A DNA stretch of 64,000 nucleotides from a virus (IMGVR_UViG_3300044568_002523), one strand, 5' to 3'. Positions 55,621 through 57,834 are shown, numbered from the stretch's first letter. Numbers and translations: made by a program. The notes: generated by a model not told the origin, from the letters alone.

Positions 55621-55950
55621 ATGAAGATAGTGATTAGAGAAGATAAGAGGGATAGAATTGCCAAACGATTATTAACTGAGGAGTTCTCCGGGATGTATGA
55701 AGATGTTAATTATATAACAGATGGTGTTGGGAAACAAAAAAGAATTGATTATCGTAATGGTGATGGTGTAATTATGATTTATGGTGATAGAAATAAAGCG
55801 TTGTATATTTGTGAAGATATTACACGTCCACTTAACTTACTTAGTTACACACCAAAACAACTTAAAGATGTTGTGGGTGAATGGTTCTCAGAGTTTTTTG
55901 AGTTACCGGTTGAAATAGTTCAACACGTAAATAAAGATAGATTAAATTAA
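55621..55950 (+). CDS. MKIVIRE-family small protein (array member 1)
   Basis: 109 aa, similar in length and pattern to 57200-57529 and 57526-57834. Confidence 0.55.
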   Translation: MKIVIREDKRDRIAKRLLTEEFSGMYEDVNYITDGVGKQKRIDYRNGDGVIMIYGDRNKALYICEDITRPLNLLSYTPKQLKDVVGEWFSEFFELPVEIVQHVNKDRLN

Positions 55951-55951
55951 T

Positions 55952-56299
55952 ATGAAAGAGTTAATTAAAAAATTGTTAAGAGAAGAAGAGGACAAACAAA
56001 CTAAATTTGAAGAGTTTGCCCAAAAAAGATTTGATGGTGCATCAAAGATTACTGAGAACGCAAAAGAAAAAGGTGGTGCAGCTATGTTAACCTATTATCA
56101 TTTTGTGGTAAAATTACCTTACTACAAGAAAGCTTCCGAAGGAAAATTTGACATCAAAGAATCTAAAGTAGAATACAAAAAACACCTTAATAAACTATGT
56201 GGTTTGTCAGAGGATGTTGATATGGGACAAGAAGAGTTCCAAAAGTTAGTGGGGCTGATTGAAGTTCTTGGTGAGTTAATAATTAAAAGTGGTAAATAA
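55952..56299 (+). CDS. MKELIKKLLREE-family small protein (array member 2)
   Basis: 115-aa ORF. Confidence 0.5.
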   Translation: MKELIKKLLREEEDKQTKFEEFAQKRFDGASKITENAKEKGGAAMLTYYHFVVKLPYYKKASEGKFDIKESKVEYKKHLNKLCGLSEDVDMGQEEFQKLVGLIEVLGELIIKSGK

Positions 56300-56892
56300 T
56301 GAAAGAGTTAATTAAAAAGATATTGAGAGAGGAAGTTCAAAAGAGATTTATAAAATCTAATCAGAGTTTTGAGCGTCTTATTATTAAACAAATGGAATCT
56401 TTAATATCCGAAACAAATAGAGTTGTTGTTCCACCTGAAGAAAATTATGGAAACTTTAGTGAGGAGTGGTGTAAAGGTGATAAAATTATTATGCAGGCAA
56501 GATACTTTTTCAGTAGTGAAGATAGTGATGAAGAAAAGTTTTTTGCTGGTGATTTATATGTTAATAAAGAAGAAATTGATTTTCTATCTCAAATGTTACA
56601 GGTTAGAAAACCCTATTTACTTAATGTAATTACCGAATGGTATGATGAGAAATACGCTACTAAGTTTGGTCAAGAAACCGGACACCCGGAATTGGAGATT
56701 GATGAGACTCACGAAACTGATAGTGACTATAAATGTTATAAAATGATTAACACTTCAAACCTAAGTAGAGAATATATGATTGATTATCTTGACACAAATA
56801 CTTTATATAAACTTAGTGAATTGGAAAAACTACCTGATGATGAGTTAGAAAGAAGATACCGAAGTGTTTATAATATCCAATTAAATAAATAA
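56299..56892 (+). CDS. MKELIKKILREE-family protein (array member 3)
   Basis: 197 aa with ATGA overlap. Confidence 0.55.
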   Translation: MKELIKKILREEVQKRFIKSNQSFERLIIKQMESLISETNRVVVPPEENYGNFSEEWCKGDKIIMQARYFFSSEDSDEEKFFAGDLYVNKEEIDFLSQMLQVRKPYLLNVITEWYDEKYATKFGQETGHPELEIDETHETDSDYKCYKMINTSNLSREYMIDYLDTNTLYKLSELEKLPDDELERRYRSVYNIQLNK

Positions 56893-57194
56893 TGAAAGTA
56901 TTAATAAAGGAAAGTAAGTATAATAATTTAATTGAGAACTATATTCTTGATGGTTATCCTGTGGTTAAAAATGTAACATTTTCAACAAAGGATGTTTATT
57001 TAGCTAGTGGGGATAAAAGTGAGAGAAGAACAATCCAAAGAACCATAATTATTATTCATCTTATTAGTGGTCAGATGACACACAGCCCAACTTGGACTAT
57101 GAAAGAAATCAGAAATGATATTAATCGGATGTTTGGTTTAGGTATTGAGCAACCGGGTTCACATTGGGGGATTGATTATAAAATACATAATTAA
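56892..57194 (+). CDS. MKVLIKE-family small protein (array member 4)
   Basis: 100 aa with ATGA overlap. Confidence 0.5.
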   Translation: MKVLIKESKYNNLIENYILDGYPVVKNVTFSTKDVYLASGDKSERRTIQRTIIIIHLISGQMTHSPTWTMKEIRNDINRMFGLGIEQPGSHWGIDYKIHN

Positions 57195-57199
57195 ACAGA

Positions 57200-57529
57200 A
57201 TGAAAATACTAATTACAGAAAATAAAAGGGATATGTTATTTAAAGCAGAGTTTAAAACTCTGTTTGATAAATTAACTCCAACAAGAGCCGGACGCACCGA
57301 GAACATTATCTACATCTACTTTGATGAGGTATATGATGATGATGCGGTTACAGGATTAGTATATAGACCAAGTAATCGTCAATTAATTATATATCCGAAT
57401 TACTTTATGAGTTTAAGAATGTTTGTTACATCTGAAGAAGAACTTGAGGAAATGATAAAGATATGTTTTGAGGAATTAACTAATAAACACGTAATATATT
57501 CTGAGATATGGATAGATAATTATTTATGA
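57200..57529 (+). CDS. MKILITE-family small protein (array member 5)
   Basis: 109-aa ORF. Confidence 0.55.
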   Translation: MKILITENKRDMLFKAEFKTLFDKLTPTRAGRTENIIYIYFDEVYDDDAVTGLVYRPSNRQLIIYPNYFMSLRMFVTSEEELEEMIKICFEELTNKHVIYSEIWIDNYL

Positions 57530-57834
57530 AAATATTAATAACTGAAGATAGAAGATACCAATTAGCCTACAAGATATTAGATGATATTTTGAATGGATTG
57601 ACTCGTGAGGATTATGATGAAAACAAAGATATATTGTTTGAAGATAAAGATGGTGAATTGGTTATGGTGTTTCAGGAAATGAAAAATACTTTATATGTTT
57701 TAAGAGATGCGCTTTGTAGTTTAAAAGTATTTTCATTTGATGATGAGGAACTACATAGATTAATTTGGAGGTGGTTTAAAGATAGAATTGGTGTAGAGGC
57801 TGAAGATGTTTATTTAGTTAATGATTTTATTTAA
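57526..57834 (+). CDS. MKILITE-family small protein (array member 6)
   Basis: 102 aa with ATGA overlap. Confidence 0.55.
   Translation: MKILITEDRRYQLAYKILDDILNGLTREDYDENKDILFEDKDGELVMVFQEMKNTLYVLRDALCSLKVFSFDDEELHRLIWRWFKDRIGVEAEDVYLVNDFI

What the first reader, a model, noticed from the sequence alone, without database searches (positions are those of the whole stretch)
55621..57834. Family of more than 20 unrelated genes sharing an N-terminal peptide (MKILITE / MKELIKKILREE / MNLxxxIxRIxxLM), including a tandem array of six
The first 7-15 residues are conserved across proteins of very different length and content. Members: 21121 MKIVIKESQYKFLVEQ, 32096 MKDIILTEKQLEKLV, 33016 MKDLIRRILKEE, 37881 MKIIITES, 41895 MRIIVKEVQNLKLIEQEEE, 46964 MKLIESIKRIISE, 49276 MKILITES, 52945(-) MKDLIRQILREE, 53327 MEIKISED, 55621 MKIVIRED, 55952 MKELIKKLLREEE, 56299 MKELIKKILREE, 56892 MKVLIKES, 57200 MKILITEN, 57526 MKILITED, 58380 MDIQENIYRIKQLMTE, 61865 MNLNEDIQRIRQIMISEE, 62635 MNLRHDIKRILREE, 63382 MNLHENIYRIKTLMVE. 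Looser matches are 22825 and 27384. In the B and C subtypes the conservation survives synonymous codon changes (agaattaaa versus agaataaga), so selection acts on the peptide and not only on the DNA. A recurring [ILV]-x-E tripeptide (LITE, VIKE, LIKE, ILRE) is reminiscent of the T4 prohead-protease cleavage site and capsid-targeting sequences of internal proteins. The link to T4 capsid-targeting sequences is my inference. Possible roles include a packaging or ejection signal, a protease-processing tag, or a localisation or degradation signal. Six consecutive members in one operon (55621-57834) suggest recent duplication.
Basis: partly seen in the sequence, partly recalled or inferred. Interest (0 to 1): 0.75.

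Follow-up and report, generated by a model that had tools for sequence, protein, structure and literature searches.

The report
Interchangeable N-terminal tags on phage proteins
About a fifth of the genes in this stretch of an uncultured T4-like giant phage start with one of three short, interchangeable peptide tags that look like the signals phage T4 uses to load proteins into its head and then clip off, which suggests that the phage injects a large and varied set of proteins, including an anti-immunity enzyme, together with its DNA.

Summary
Three N-terminal peptide classes occur only at protein starts: A (MKIIITE[SN]Q..L.E), B (MKELIRRILREE) and C (MNLQENIxRIKxMMGΦΦ[TN]E). In 2.4 Mb of related contigs they sit on at least 134 unrelated protein bodies. 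Class C alone marks 708 protein clusters worldwide. Homologous bodies carry different tag classes, so the tags are swappable modules. Synonymous codons vary freely, so selection acts on the peptide.

The window comes from an uncultured clade of T4-like jumbo phages, probably infecting Bacteroidota. Their head module, which includes a gp21-type S77 prohead protease, starts just past the window's end in related contigs. Every tag ends in ΦΦxE, the T4 gp21 cleavage motif (compare T4 Alt MELITE↓, gp24 …LLRE↓, gp23 …LTE↓).

AlphaFold places the tags as exposed tails. Tagged genes share the promoter type of portal, terminase and protease genes and avoid host-type promoters. Their bodies are specifically depleted in [LI]xE.

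Best explanation (about 0.55): these are capsid-targeting, protease-removed propeptides that load diverse cargo for ejection, including an Acb1 anti-CBASS enzyme, lysozymes and an ADP-ribosyltransferase. This is unproven, because there is no proteomics. "Recent duplication" is not supported.

The parts
55572..55596 (+). Terminator-like hairpin ending the upstream unit, just before the array
55609..55616 (+). ATATTTAT promoter-like motif 4 nt before the ATG at 55621. There is no room for a Shine-Dalgarno sequence, so the mRNA is inferred to be leaderless.
55621..55950 (+). Array gene 1, 109 aa, class A tag MKIVIRED. Full-length paralogue of 57200, 57526 and 49277.
55952..56299 (+). Array gene 2, 115 aa, class B tag MKELIKKLLREE. 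Homologues elsewhere carry a class A tag on the same body.
56299..56892 (+). Array gene 3, 197 aa, class B tag MKELIKKILREE. Homologues elsewhere carry a class A tag.
56892..57194 (+). Array gene 4, 100 aa, class A tag MKVLIKES. The body is unrelated to the others.
57200..57529 (+). Array gene 5, 109 aa, class A tag MKILITEN. Member of the paralogue family.
57526..57834 (+). [not shown]
57864..57885 (.). Bidirectional terminator-like hairpin closing the array
58380..58787 (+). 135 aa, class C tag MDIQENIYRIKQLMTE, with a TATTTAT motif 4 nt upstream. Homologues elsewhere carry a class A tag.
59769..60335 (+). 188 aa Acb1-like 2H phosphodiesterase (anti-CBASS family) with a class C-like tag MDLNKELTKMKSMMGLNE. 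The true start is the internal ATG of ORF 59700-60335.
61865..62635 (+). 256 aa, class C tag MNLNEDIQRIRQIMISEE. This is the most widely conserved tagged gene (238 relatives in IMG/VR). The head module follows about 0.85 kb downstream in related contigs.
62635..63378 (+). 247 aa, C/B hybrid tag MNLRHDIKRILREE. Its C-terminal domain is homologous to the body of 63382.
63382..63864 (+). 160 aa, class C tag MNLHENIYRIKTLMVE
21121..21642 (+). 173 aa, class A tag MKIVIKESQYKFLVEQ followed directly by a Pro/Thr-rich linker, so the tag is a separate module
32096..32416 (+). 106 aa, class A variant MKDIILTEKQLEKLV
33016..33936 (+). 306 aa, class B tag MKDLIRRILKEE
37881..38414 (+). 177 aa, class A tag MKIIITES
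41895..42419 (+). 174 aa, weak class A variant MRIIVKEVQNLKLIEQ
49277..49582 (+). 101 aa, class A tag MKILITES. Member of the paralogue family.
52367..52945 (-). 192 aa, class B tag MKDLIRQILREE
53327..53701 (+). 124 aa, weak class A variant MEIKISED
46964..48568 (+). 534 aa, loose variant MKLIESIKRIISE.
22825..24189 (+). 454 aa, loose class A variant MGRKLRLTESELYKVIKKIVEQ, with an acidic coiled-coil body
27384..27752 (+). 122 aa, loose variant MAKRFIISEEE...LVNEQ, followed by a peptidoglycan-binding domain (PG_binding_1, E 9.4e-5)
58839..59168 (-). Untagged paralogue of the class A family, preceded by a host-type TAnnTTTG promoter instead of TATTTAT

Best explanation
The three peptide classes are interchangeable capsid-targeting propeptides of an uncultured clade of T4-like jumbo phages. 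The proposed steps are these. (1) Tagged genes are transcribed with the head genes from phage-type TATTTAT promoters. (2) The exposed N-terminal tag docks the protein to the assembling prohead core. (3) The gp21-family (Peptidase S77) prohead protease cuts after the Glu of the terminal ΦΦxE (class A: ITE-7 and often LxE-15/16; class B: LRE-11; class C: ΦΦ[TN]E-18/19) and frees the mature cargo inside the head. (4) The cargo is ejected with the DNA at the next infection and acts before any phage gene is expressed, in counter-defence, host takeover or cell-wall passage.

Shown here: the tags exist, they are modular, and they are under peptide-level selection. The clade has a T4-type head module with a protease whose catalytic residues are conserved. 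The tags end in the T4 cleavage motif and are predicted to be exposed. Tagged genes share their promoter class with head genes. [LI]xE is depleted in tagged bodies.

Inferred, not shown: binding to the prohead core, cleavage, packaging and ejection.
For: 1. Modularity. The tags sit on at least 134 non-homologous bodies in 2.4 Mb of related contigs. Eleven body clusters carry more than one tag class, with explicit A/B/C swaps on bodies that align well. Class C marks 708 clusters among 1.84 billion representatives; 132 of the best 150 matches start at residue 1 and 146 lie within the first 25 residues.
2. Peptide-level selection. Synonymous codons are used at near-background ratios at every conserved position.
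3. T4-type machinery. Related loci carry TerL, portal, protease, scaffold and MCP, starting about 0.85 kb beyond the 61865 orthologue. Pfam gives Peptidase_S77 at 9e-21 and Gp23 at 1e-71. H85 and S140 of gp21, and an N-terminal LLIE/ILIE that aligns with T4's LIE-9, are conserved.
4. Likeness to verified T4 propeptides. These are Alt MELITE (processed at ITE-6, and also at LTE-619; PMC5694885), IPI ...TITE, IPII/III ...FIAE, gp24 MAKINELLRE, gp22 ...LIAE and gp23 L63-T-E65. T4 CTSs are 10-19 residues long and sit on otherwise unrelated internal proteins (PMC9026906).
5. Conservation stops at a ΦxE. Information falls to background after about residue 16 (A), 13 (B) and 19 (C). A second [LI]xE lies at residue 15/16 in 41% of class A bodies and at 18/19 in 60% of class C bodies, against 1.4% per position in the background.
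6. Exposure. In 57526 the tag is a coil ahead of helix 1. In the Acb1-like protein the tag is a low-confidence helix plus a disordered linker that holds LNE, just ahead of a confidently folded body. In 21121 the tag is followed by a Pro/Thr linker.
7. Co-regulation. 36% of tagged genes have TATTTAT upstream and 2% have the host-type TAnnTTTG, against 23% and 11.5% of untagged genes (OR 8.5, p 1e-13). Portal (14/21), protease (17/18), TerL (8/15) and gp25 use TATTTAT and never the host type.
8. [LI]xE is depleted in tagged bodies: O/E 0.94 against 1.17, permutation p 0.0004. Ex[LI], [LI]xD, [LI]xK and [LI]xQ show no difference.
9. Cargo types resemble known injected proteins: Acb1 anti-CBASS, ART-PolyVal ADP-ribosyltransferase (as with T4 Alt), lysozymes, PG-binding domains, a phosphatase and a sigma factor.
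10. T4 Acb1 lacks the N-terminal extension. Diverged homologues keep only a short helix plus ΦΦxE just before the body.
Against: - There is no virion proteomics, cleavage data or cultured member. Steps 2-4 are inference.
- About 20% of the genes in the window are tagged, which implies many tens of cargo species per genome. That is far beyond T4's handful.
- The clade's own scaffold, MCP and portal do not carry these tags.
- The nearest cultured relative with the same protease family, Flavobacterium phage immuto, has no tags in the 150 of its 160 kb that were scanned. The tags are therefore not part of the basic T4-like assembly.
- The N-terminal part of the T4 IP CTS (MKTYQEF) is not similar. 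The resemblance to Alt rests on 6 residues.
- [LI]xE is common in an AT-rich proteome (1.4% per position).
- The 'late' assignment of TATTTAT rests only on its use by head genes.
- 62% of tagged genes have neither promoter motif nearby; I take them to be operon-internal.
- Some cargo is not obviously useful when injected, for example a lysozyme-LysM protein that could be the endolysin.
- The [LI]xE depletion is modest, about 20%.
Confidence: 0.55

Rival explanations
1. The tag is a translation or expression element for leaderless mRNAs. The first codons would be constrained because the ribosome must start on a 5'-terminal AUG with no Shine-Dalgarno sequence.
For: Many tagged genes have TATTTAT exactly 4 nt before the ATG, which leaves no leader. 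Ile codons 3-5 are shifted towards ATA, and AAA is slightly enriched at codon 2.
Against: All synonymous codons are used at near-background ratios. Q9, Y10 and L13 are conserved as amino acids. About 62% of tagged genes have no promoter motif nearby. TerL, portal and many host-type promoter genes share the same N4-ATG geometry without any tag. There are three quite different peptides. Tag-like motifs also occur inside the 10728 protein and in fused ORFs.
Confidence: 0.08
2. The tag is a recognition signal for a cytoplasmic partner rather than the prohead. Candidates are an N-degron for a host AAA+ protease, giving timed turnover, or a chaperone-binding handle. The phage encodes a J-domain protein at 14429.
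For: The tail is exposed, with a basic residue followed by a hydrophobic stretch. From memory and not tested here, M-basic-ΦΦΦ resembles a ClpX N-terminal recognition class and DnaK-binding cores. The tags are interchangeable, as expected for a shared receptor.
Against: This does not explain why every class ends in ΦΦxE, why [LI]xE is specifically depleted in the bodies, or why tagged genes share promoters with head genes and avoid host-type promoters. Nothing here tests it directly.
Confidence: 0.15
3. The tag is a protease-removed pro-sequence that keeps enzymes inactive until cut (zymogen control), or is cut by the S77 protease outside the capsid, with no role in targeting.
For: The evidence on the ΦΦxE ends, tag exposure, the S77 protease and [LI]xE depletion applies equally here. 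T4 Alt's flanking propeptides have been suggested to control its activity (PMC5694885).
Against: A 7-19 residue tail outside the fold is unlikely to inhibit more than 130 unrelated folds. T4 gp21 is active only inside proheads (established knowledge). The strong conservation of residues upstream of the cleavage site points to a binding function.
Confidence: 0.1
4. The members are simple paralogues or DNA-level recombination linkers. Either they descend from one gene and only the N-terminus stayed conserved, or the shared 5' sequence is a crossover site for gene shuffling.
For: Four members are true paralogues. The first 20 nt of 55952 and 56299 are identical.
Against: There are at least 134 body clusters with no detectable similarity and with different Pfam domains and folds. 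The tags are swapped on homologous bodies. The DNA varies at synonymous sites. Recombination at the tags may well happen, but it would be a consequence of the tags and not their function.
Confidence: 0.04
5. The tag is a non-classical export signal that takes proteins to the cell envelope.
For: Seven of roughly 20 tagged proteins with a Pfam domain act on peptidoglycan: lysozyme x2, Hydrolase_2, LysM and PG_binding_1 x3.
Against: The tags are charged, short and not hydrophobic. None of 127 tagged bodies has a long hydrophobic run. Cytoplasmic enzymes are tagged as well (Acb1-like, sigma factor, kinases, ADP-ribosyltransferase).
Confidence: 0.03

Closest known systems
Capsid targeting sequences and N-terminal propeptides of phage T4 head-internal proteins (IPI, IPII, IPIII, Alt; also gp24, gp22, gp67, gp68), removed by the gp21 prohead protease
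   Same: - Short N-terminal peptides (6-19 aa) on otherwise unrelated, fast-evolving proteins.
- They end in (L/I)-x-E.
- The phage has a gp21-family S77 protease and a T4-type head module.
- The cargo includes counter-defence and host-modifying enzymes (T4: IPI*, Alt).
- Alt's MELITE↓ is nearly the class A tag MKI[IL]ITE, and gp24's ...ELLRE↓ resembles class B ...RILRE.
   Different: - No significant sequence similarity to the IP CTS MKTYQEFIAE.
- Three distinct, interchangeable tag classes.
- Tens of tagged genes per 64 kb instead of a handful per genome.
- The tags are much more strongly conserved across hundreds of families.
- Cleavage, packaging and ejection are untested here.
Propeptides of ejection and inner-body proteins of phiKZ-like giant phages (phiKZ, 201phi2-1, SPN3US), cut by a gp21-like protease
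   Same: Jumbo phages that package many proteins. The protease is homologous to T4 gp21 and cuts after Glu in a three-residue motif (PMC5694885).
   Different: The motif there is S/A/G-x-E or A-x-E, not ΦxE. The propeptides are mostly longer than 100 aa and belong to paralogue families rather than being a short portable tag. The phage lineage is different.
Encapsulin cargo-loading (targeting) peptides
   Same: Short terminal peptides that direct unrelated cargo enzymes into an HK97-fold shell, and that can be moved between cargos.
   Different: They are usually C-terminal and are not removed by a protease. They belong to bacterial nanocompartments, not virions, and show no sequence likeness. 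This comparison is from general knowledge and was not tested here.
Acb1 anti-CBASS phosphodiesterase (T4 gene 57B; phage FBB1 Acb1)
   Same: Window gene 59769-60335 scores above Pfam's Acb1 gathering threshold. It keeps both HxT motifs, and its model matches 2H phosphodiesterases including 7t26.
   Different: It carries a roughly 20-aa class C-like tag that T4 Acb1 lacks. Its activity on cyclic nucleotides is untested.

Membership tests
T4-type capsid-targeting / gp21-cleaved propeptide system | The phage encodes a gp21-family (Peptidase S77) prohead protease within a T4-type head module | tested here: met
   The module is not inside the window. In orthologous loci (L016, L026, L054 and others) it starts about 0.85 kb after the 61865 orthologue. 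Pfam Peptidase_S77 9e-21, Gp23 1e-71; H85 and S140 conserved.
T4-type capsid-targeting / gp21-cleaved propeptide system | A short N-terminal peptide shared by otherwise unrelated proteins | tested here: met
   At least 134 body clusters, tag swaps between classes, and 708 clusters worldwide for class C.
T4-type capsid-targeting / gp21-cleaved propeptide system | The peptide ends in the protease motif (L/I)-x-E at an accessible site | tested here: met
   ITE-7 plus LxE-15/16 (A), LRE/LKE-11 (B), ΦΦ[TN]E-18/19 (C). The tags are predicted to be coil or disordered. The specificity of this clade's protease is itself untested.
T4-type capsid-targeting / gp21-cleaved propeptide system | Sequence similarity to the T4 IP CTS (MKTYQEFIAE) | tested here: not met
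   There is no similarity beyond MK and the terminal ΦxE. The resemblance is to Alt's MELITE and gp24's LLRE only, which are too short to establish homology.
T4-type capsid-targeting / gp21-cleaved propeptide system | Expression together with head assembly (late) | tested here: inconclusive
   Tagged genes share the TATTTAT promoter class with portal, protease and TerL and avoid the host-type TAnnTTTG. Timing itself was not measured.
T4-type capsid-targeting / gp21-cleaved propeptide system | The tag is cleaved by the prohead protease | not testable with these tools
   The only indirect support is the specific depletion of [LI]xE in tagged bodies.
T4-type capsid-targeting / gp21-cleaved propeptide system | Tagged proteins are present in virions and ejected, and the tag is sufficient to package a foreign protein | not testable with these tools
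   No cultured member exists. The tag consensus has no match in GenBank phages.
Acb1 (anti-CBASS 2H phosphodiesterase), for window 59769-60335 | Pfam Acb1 above the gathering score, two HxT motifs and a 2H fold | tested here: met
   33.6 bits against a gathering score of 27. H63-x-T65 and H139-x-T141 are invariant. Foldseek matches 7t26 and 7t27 and other 2H PDEs at E about 1e-5. Substrate untested.
Simple paralogue family | Similarity along the whole length of the members | tested here: not met
   Only 49277, 55621, 57200, 57526 and 59168(-) align along their full length. The other bodies are unrelated.

The most novel reading that the evidence does not exclude
An abundant, uncultured clade of T4-like jumbo phages of Bacteroidota uses three portable N-terminal address tags to load on the order of a hundred different proteins into each capsid. 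These would include ready-made counter-defence enzymes such as Acb1, ADP-ribosyltransferases, phosphatases, sigma factors and cell-wall enzymes. If so, a large 'injected proteome' could be read directly from sequence, and new injected anti-defence proteins could be found simply by looking for the tag.
Probability: 0.4. Interest if true: 0.85.

Novelty: new variant of a known kind. Interest (0 to 1): 0.72.

Why it matters
If the tags are capsid-loading signals, three things follow.
- They give a sequence-only way to list the proteins that a whole group of uncultured giant phages injects with its DNA. At present that list can only be obtained by virion proteomics of cultured phages.
- The list already contains an anti-CBASS enzyme, so counter-defence could be delivered before any phage gene is expressed. 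The many tagged proteins of unknown fold become candidates for new anti-defence or host-takeover functions.
- The tags are short, portable and come in three interchangeable forms. That makes them candidates for packaging engineered cargo into phage heads, as has been done with the T4 CTS.

Even if the mechanism is different, a peptide code shared by hundreds of unrelated phage protein families and restricted to residue 1 still needs an explanation.

Tried and rejected
- **GenBank phages.** Megablast of 54-64 kb, and tblastn of members 63382 and 57526, found nothing. tblastn with 20-aa consensus tags also found nothing. At that query length only near-perfect matches would be reported.
- **Family searches on members.** Pfam and PHROGs gave no hits for almost all bodies.
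- **phrog_530 'head maturation protease' hit of 22825.** I rejected it as coiled-coil noise. Pfam shows only weak tropomyosin- and scaffold-like hits, and there is no PDB match.
- **Literature.** A full-text search for the tag strings found no paper. A search for CTS combined with T4-like and metagenome found nothing relevant.
- **The search for homologous proteins with a tag profile.** The second returned only short fragments of 70 aa or fewer, so it gave no view of domain architecture. The representative-library search replaced it.
- **Nearest cultured relative.** Flavobacterium phage immuto was scanned over 150 of 160 kb and has no tags, so no proteomics can be borrowed from it.
- **Sigma-70 promoter scan.** It showed no enrichment (39 found, 47 expected), in line with non-sigma-70 promoters.
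- **tRNA scan.** None found.
- **Explanations rejected.** Simple paralogy, a DNA-level recombination linker and an export signal are set out under the rival explanations.
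Full report
**1. The observation**

The window is AT-rich (about 31% GC) and densely packed with short genes: 112 predicted genes in 64 kb. The only correction is that the ATG given as 49276 lies at 49277.

The peptides fall into three classes.
- Class A is MK[IV][ILV]I[TK]E[SND]: 21121, 32096, 37881, 41895, 49277, 53327, 55621, 56892, 57200, 57526.
- Class B is MK[DE]LI[RK]x[IL]L[RK]EE: 33016, 52945(-), 55952, 56299.
- Class C is M[ND][LI]xE[ND]IxRI[KR]x[LI]M: 58380, 61865, 63382, plus the C/B hybrid 62635.

Without the Met, the class A core occurs nine times in about 21,000 residues and the class B core four times. 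All of these are at residue 2 and none is internal. Profile HMMs trained only on sequences from other contigs recover 15 window members at their N-termini. They leave 55621, 41895, 53327, 46964, 22825 and 27384 as weaker variants. I found further variants at 59769, 8337 and 27752.

The array 55621-57834 is a single unit. It has a terminator-like hairpin on each side and one promoter-like motif upstream.

**2. Tags on unrelated bodies, not a paralogue family**

Only 49277, 55621, 57200 and 57526, together with the untagged 59168(-), align along their whole length, at about 25% identity. That level of identity reflects old divergence, not recent duplication.

The 61865 protein has 238 relatives in IMG/VR, on contigs of up to 324 kb. 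Of its 150 matches, 146 lie at ORF starts in contigs of about 30% GC and carry an extended consensus that was not part of the pattern, MKIIITE[SNE]Q[YFL]xx[LI]xE.

In these 2.4 Mb I found 431 distinct tagged proteins in 134 body clusters that share no detectable similarity. Eleven body clusters carry more than one tag class. For example, the body of 55952 has a class B tag in the window and a class A tag in L126 and L151. The 58380 body has class C here and class A in L094 and L120. The 56299 body has class B here and class A in L121 and L162. The tags therefore behave as interchangeable modules.

A class C profile searched against 1.84 billion representative proteins found 708 clusters at E<=0.001. 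Of the best 150 matches, 132 begin at residue 1 and 146 lie within the first 25 residues. The few internal matches are fused neighbouring tagged ORFs.

**3. Selection acts on the peptide**

I examined 95 non-redundant class A genes recovered by a pattern that allows all synonymous codons. Every synonymous codon is used at each conserved position, at ratios close to the genomic background. The only departure is a moderate shift towards ATA for Ile. Gln at position 9, which was not in the pattern, is present in 82 of 95, with CAA and CAG at the background ratio.

Relative entropy is 2-5 bits per position across the tag. It falls to background after about residue 16 (A), 13 (B) and 19 (C). Untagged N-termini carry almost no information.

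**4. What kind of phage this is**

No GenBank phage matches at the DNA level. T4 proteins detect clear homologues in the related loci: TerL (gp17), portal (gp20), prohead protease (gp21), major capsid protein (gp23/24), sheath (gp18) and gp25.

In many loci the order TerL - portal - two small genes - protease - scaffold-like protein - MCP lies on the opposite strand and starts about 0.85 kb after the 61865 orthologue. By synteny, the head module should begin just beyond position 64000 of the window. The window itself ends before this can be checked.

Pfam confirms Peptidase_S77 (9e-21) and Gp23 (1e-71). The protease keeps the invariant His85 and Ser140 of gp21 and an N-terminal LLIE/ILIE that aligns with T4's LIE-9. 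The nearest cultured capsid proteins are those of Microcystis phage Mel-JY01 (39%) and Flavobacterium phage immuto (40%). Immuto has no tags in the 150 kb scanned.

**5. Likeness to T4 propeptides**

From the T4 record I read the following N-termini:
- Alt: MELITELFDE
- IPII and IPIII: MKTYQEFIAE
- IPI: MKTFKEFTSTTTPVSTITE
- gp24: MAKINELLRE
- gp22: MLKEQLIAE
- gp67: MEGLIE
- gp68: MLLIPE
- gp21: MNEPQLLIE
- gp23: L63-T-E65

The literature states the following. T4 internal proteins carry 10-19-residue capsid targeting sequences that bind the prohead core and are removed by gp21. The rest of these proteins is not conserved among T4 relatives (PMC9026906; PMC3012670). Alt is processed at ITE-6 and at LTE-619 (PMC5694885).

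Class A (…IITE-7) is almost Alt's propeptide. Class B (…ILRE-11) resembles the propeptide of gp24. Class C ends in G-Φ-Φ-[TN]-E. A second [LI]xE ends at residue 15 or 16 in 41% of class A bodies and at 18 or 19 in 60% of class C bodies, against 1.4% per position in the background.

**6. Structure**

The 57526 family gives a confident model (pLDDT 90.6). Residues 1-6 are coil and the first helix starts at residue 7. The body matches no known fold.

The tagged Acb1-like protein gives a confident 2H-fold body from residue 26. Its tag is a low-confidence helix (residues 3-13) followed by a disordered linker that contains L17-N-E19. In 21121 the tag runs straight into a Pro/Thr-rich linker. In all three cases the tag lies outside the fold and is accessible.

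**7. Regulation**

Two promoter-like motifs precede genes in this clade, both most often exactly 4 nt before the ATG. This spacing implies leaderless mRNAs.
- One is TAnnTTTG, the -7 box typical of Bacteroidota (general knowledge). It precedes membrane-protein genes and the operon that holds the phage's sigma-70-family gene at 5786-6586, among others.
- The other is TATTTAT.

Of 370 tagged genes, 36% have TATTTAT and 2% the host-type box. Of 2139 untagged genes, 23% and 11.5% do (odds ratio 8.5, p 1e-13). Portal (14/21), protease (17/18), TerL (8/15) and gp25 homologues use TATTTAT and never the host type. The one untagged paralogue of the class A family, 59168(-), sits behind a host-type box.

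I infer that tagged genes are expressed with the head genes. Timing itself was not measured.

**8. A signature expected of protease exposure**

In the bodies of tagged proteins (residues after 25, one representative per cluster), [LI]xE occurs at 0.94 of the frequency expected from composition. In untagged proteins from the same loci it occurs at 1.17 (permutation p 0.0004; p 0.001 when untagged proteins are limited to 400 aa). The control motifs Ex[LI], [LI]xD, [VMF]xE, [LI]xK and [LI]xQ show no difference. The effect is modest, but it is specific to the T4 cleavage motif.

**9. The cargo**

Most bodies have no Pfam or PHROG match. Those that do include:
- two phage lysozymes, one of them with LysM
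- a SleB-type cell-wall hydrolase
- three PG_binding_1 proteins, including window 27384
- an ART-PolyVal ADP-ribosyltransferase
- a dual-specificity phosphatase
- a sigma factor
- P-loop kinases
- DUF6576

Window 59769-60335 is an Acb1-family 2H phosphodiesterase. It scores 33.6 bits against a gathering score of 27, both HxT motifs are invariant, and its fold matches 7t26. T4 Acb1 lacks the N-terminal extension. Diverged homologues keep only a short helix and a ΦΦxE just before the first strand.

**10. Verdict**

The best explanation is that the tags are capsid-targeting propeptides removed by the gp21-type protease. They would load a large and varied cargo for ejection into the next host. I give this about 0.55, because binding, cleavage, packaging and ejection are all inferred.

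The main points against it are:
- the very large number of tagged genes
- the absence of the tags from the clade's own head proteins and from the nearest cultured relative
- reliance on a three-residue motif that is common in AT-rich proteomes

The rivals score lower, for these reasons.
- Leaderless-mRNA translation element: contradicted by codon-level variation, operon-internal members and untagged genes with the same promoter geometry.
- Cytoplasmic degron or chaperone handle: not excluded, but it explains fewer of the observations.
- Zymogen pro-sequence: a short tail outside the fold is unlikely to inhibit more than 130 unrelated folds.
- Simple paralogy or recombination linker: largely refuted.
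- Export signal: the tags are charged, and cytoplasmic enzymes are tagged too.

Relative to what is known, this is a new variant of the T4 CTS principle. It has three interchangeable tag classes, spans hundreds of protein families, and occurs in uncultured jumbo phages that probably infect Bacteroidota.

Noticed in passing
window-wide; e.g. 55609-55616, 58368-58375, 61853-61860, 21109-21116, 37869-37876, 52950-52957(-): A conserved [TG]ATATTTAT motif ends exactly 4 nt before the ATG of many genes, often right after a terminator hairpin. There is no room for a Shine-Dalgarno sequence, so these mRNAs are probably leaderless. A longer version, ATATTTATAATAAAAAA, followed by a short A-rich leader, precedes 10728, 16626, 27384, 32096, 36720(-) and 42907(-).
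   Followed up: partly
window intergenic regions upstream of 5209, 30113, 31199, 33996, 44868, 60400, 58331(-), 59168(-), 42965, 24238, 50907, 53755: A second promoter class, TAnnTTTG (mostly TATCTTTG), matches the Bacteroidota -7 box. Across the related loci it also sits mostly 4 nt before the ATG (87 cases). This points to a Bacteroidota host and to leaderless early transcripts. E. coli-type sigma-70 promoters are not enriched.
   Followed up: partly
window 5786-6586 (+): The phage encodes a sigma-70-family factor (Sigma70_r2, r4 and r1_2; phrog_351 at 1.5e-56). Its operon lies behind a host-type promoter at about 5190. It is a candidate reader of the TATTTAT promoters, which would make a sigma cascade.
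   Followed up: partly
window 59700-60335 (+): The longest ORF starts at 59700, but the real start is the ATG at 59769 (188 aa), as gene callers find in hundreds of relatives. The product is an Acb1-family anti-CBASS 2H phosphodiesterase.
   Followed up: yes
window 10728-12029 (+): This 433-aa Lys/Glu-rich protein has two CxxC pairs near its N-terminus. It also has tag-like motifs inside it (YRLTESEMISMIEKIVLEQ at about 204-222) and at its C-terminus (INEEFNRIKSLMGYNQ at about 414-430). It could be a multiply cleaved core or internal protein, or a fusion of tagged modules.
   Followed up: no
window 49583-49750 and 58839-59168(-): The C-terminal peptide EEHY[NK]L[RE]VTTT of the class A paralogues is repeated. 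Two extra copies follow gene 49277 in a small ORF at 49598-49750, and the motif occurs twice at the end of 59168(-). This may be a remnant of recombination or a short tandem duplication.
   Followed up: no
window 27752-29158 (+) and L085, L088, L102, L110, L191, L197: The DHH-family phosphoesterase starts MKKLIKESG in the window. Its orthologues in other contigs start MKIIITESQYKMLIKESG. The class A tag has therefore been gained or lost on an otherwise conserved enzyme.
   Followed up: partly
L106:6654-9632: L106 comes from a more distant tag-bearing phage (34.7% GC). There, the genes right after the S77 protease, where T4 has its scaffold gene, are two Gln/Lys-rich paralogues. They start MKIIITETKLRNIV... 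and MEKNKIIIESQLRNLI... A 70-aa protein there starts MTLTKDVLKRIIKEE. In that phage the tags therefore occur inside the head-morphogenesis module.
   Followed up: partly
window 951-3317, 14429-15340, 15671-16519, 20469-21072, 26479-27336, 29526-29951, 35068-35985: Other recognisable genes are an SbcC/Rad50-like ATPase, a J-domain protein, and, judged from their N-terminal sequences only, DNA methyltransferases, a thioredoxin/glutaredoxin pair, a Nudix hydrolase and an NAD-dependent epimerase. No tRNA genes were found in the window.
   Followed up: no
L054:11614-20459 (-) and equivalents: The head proteins of the clade have their own N-terminal ΦxE sites: protease MKILGPNETGRGILIE, scaffold MTEKSILE...TLEE, MCP MGALLE...RVIKE, and a 248-aa protein MNKFGALKSKLLNKLTE. 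This is consistent with T4-like processing, but none of them carries a class A, B or C tag.
   Followed up: partly
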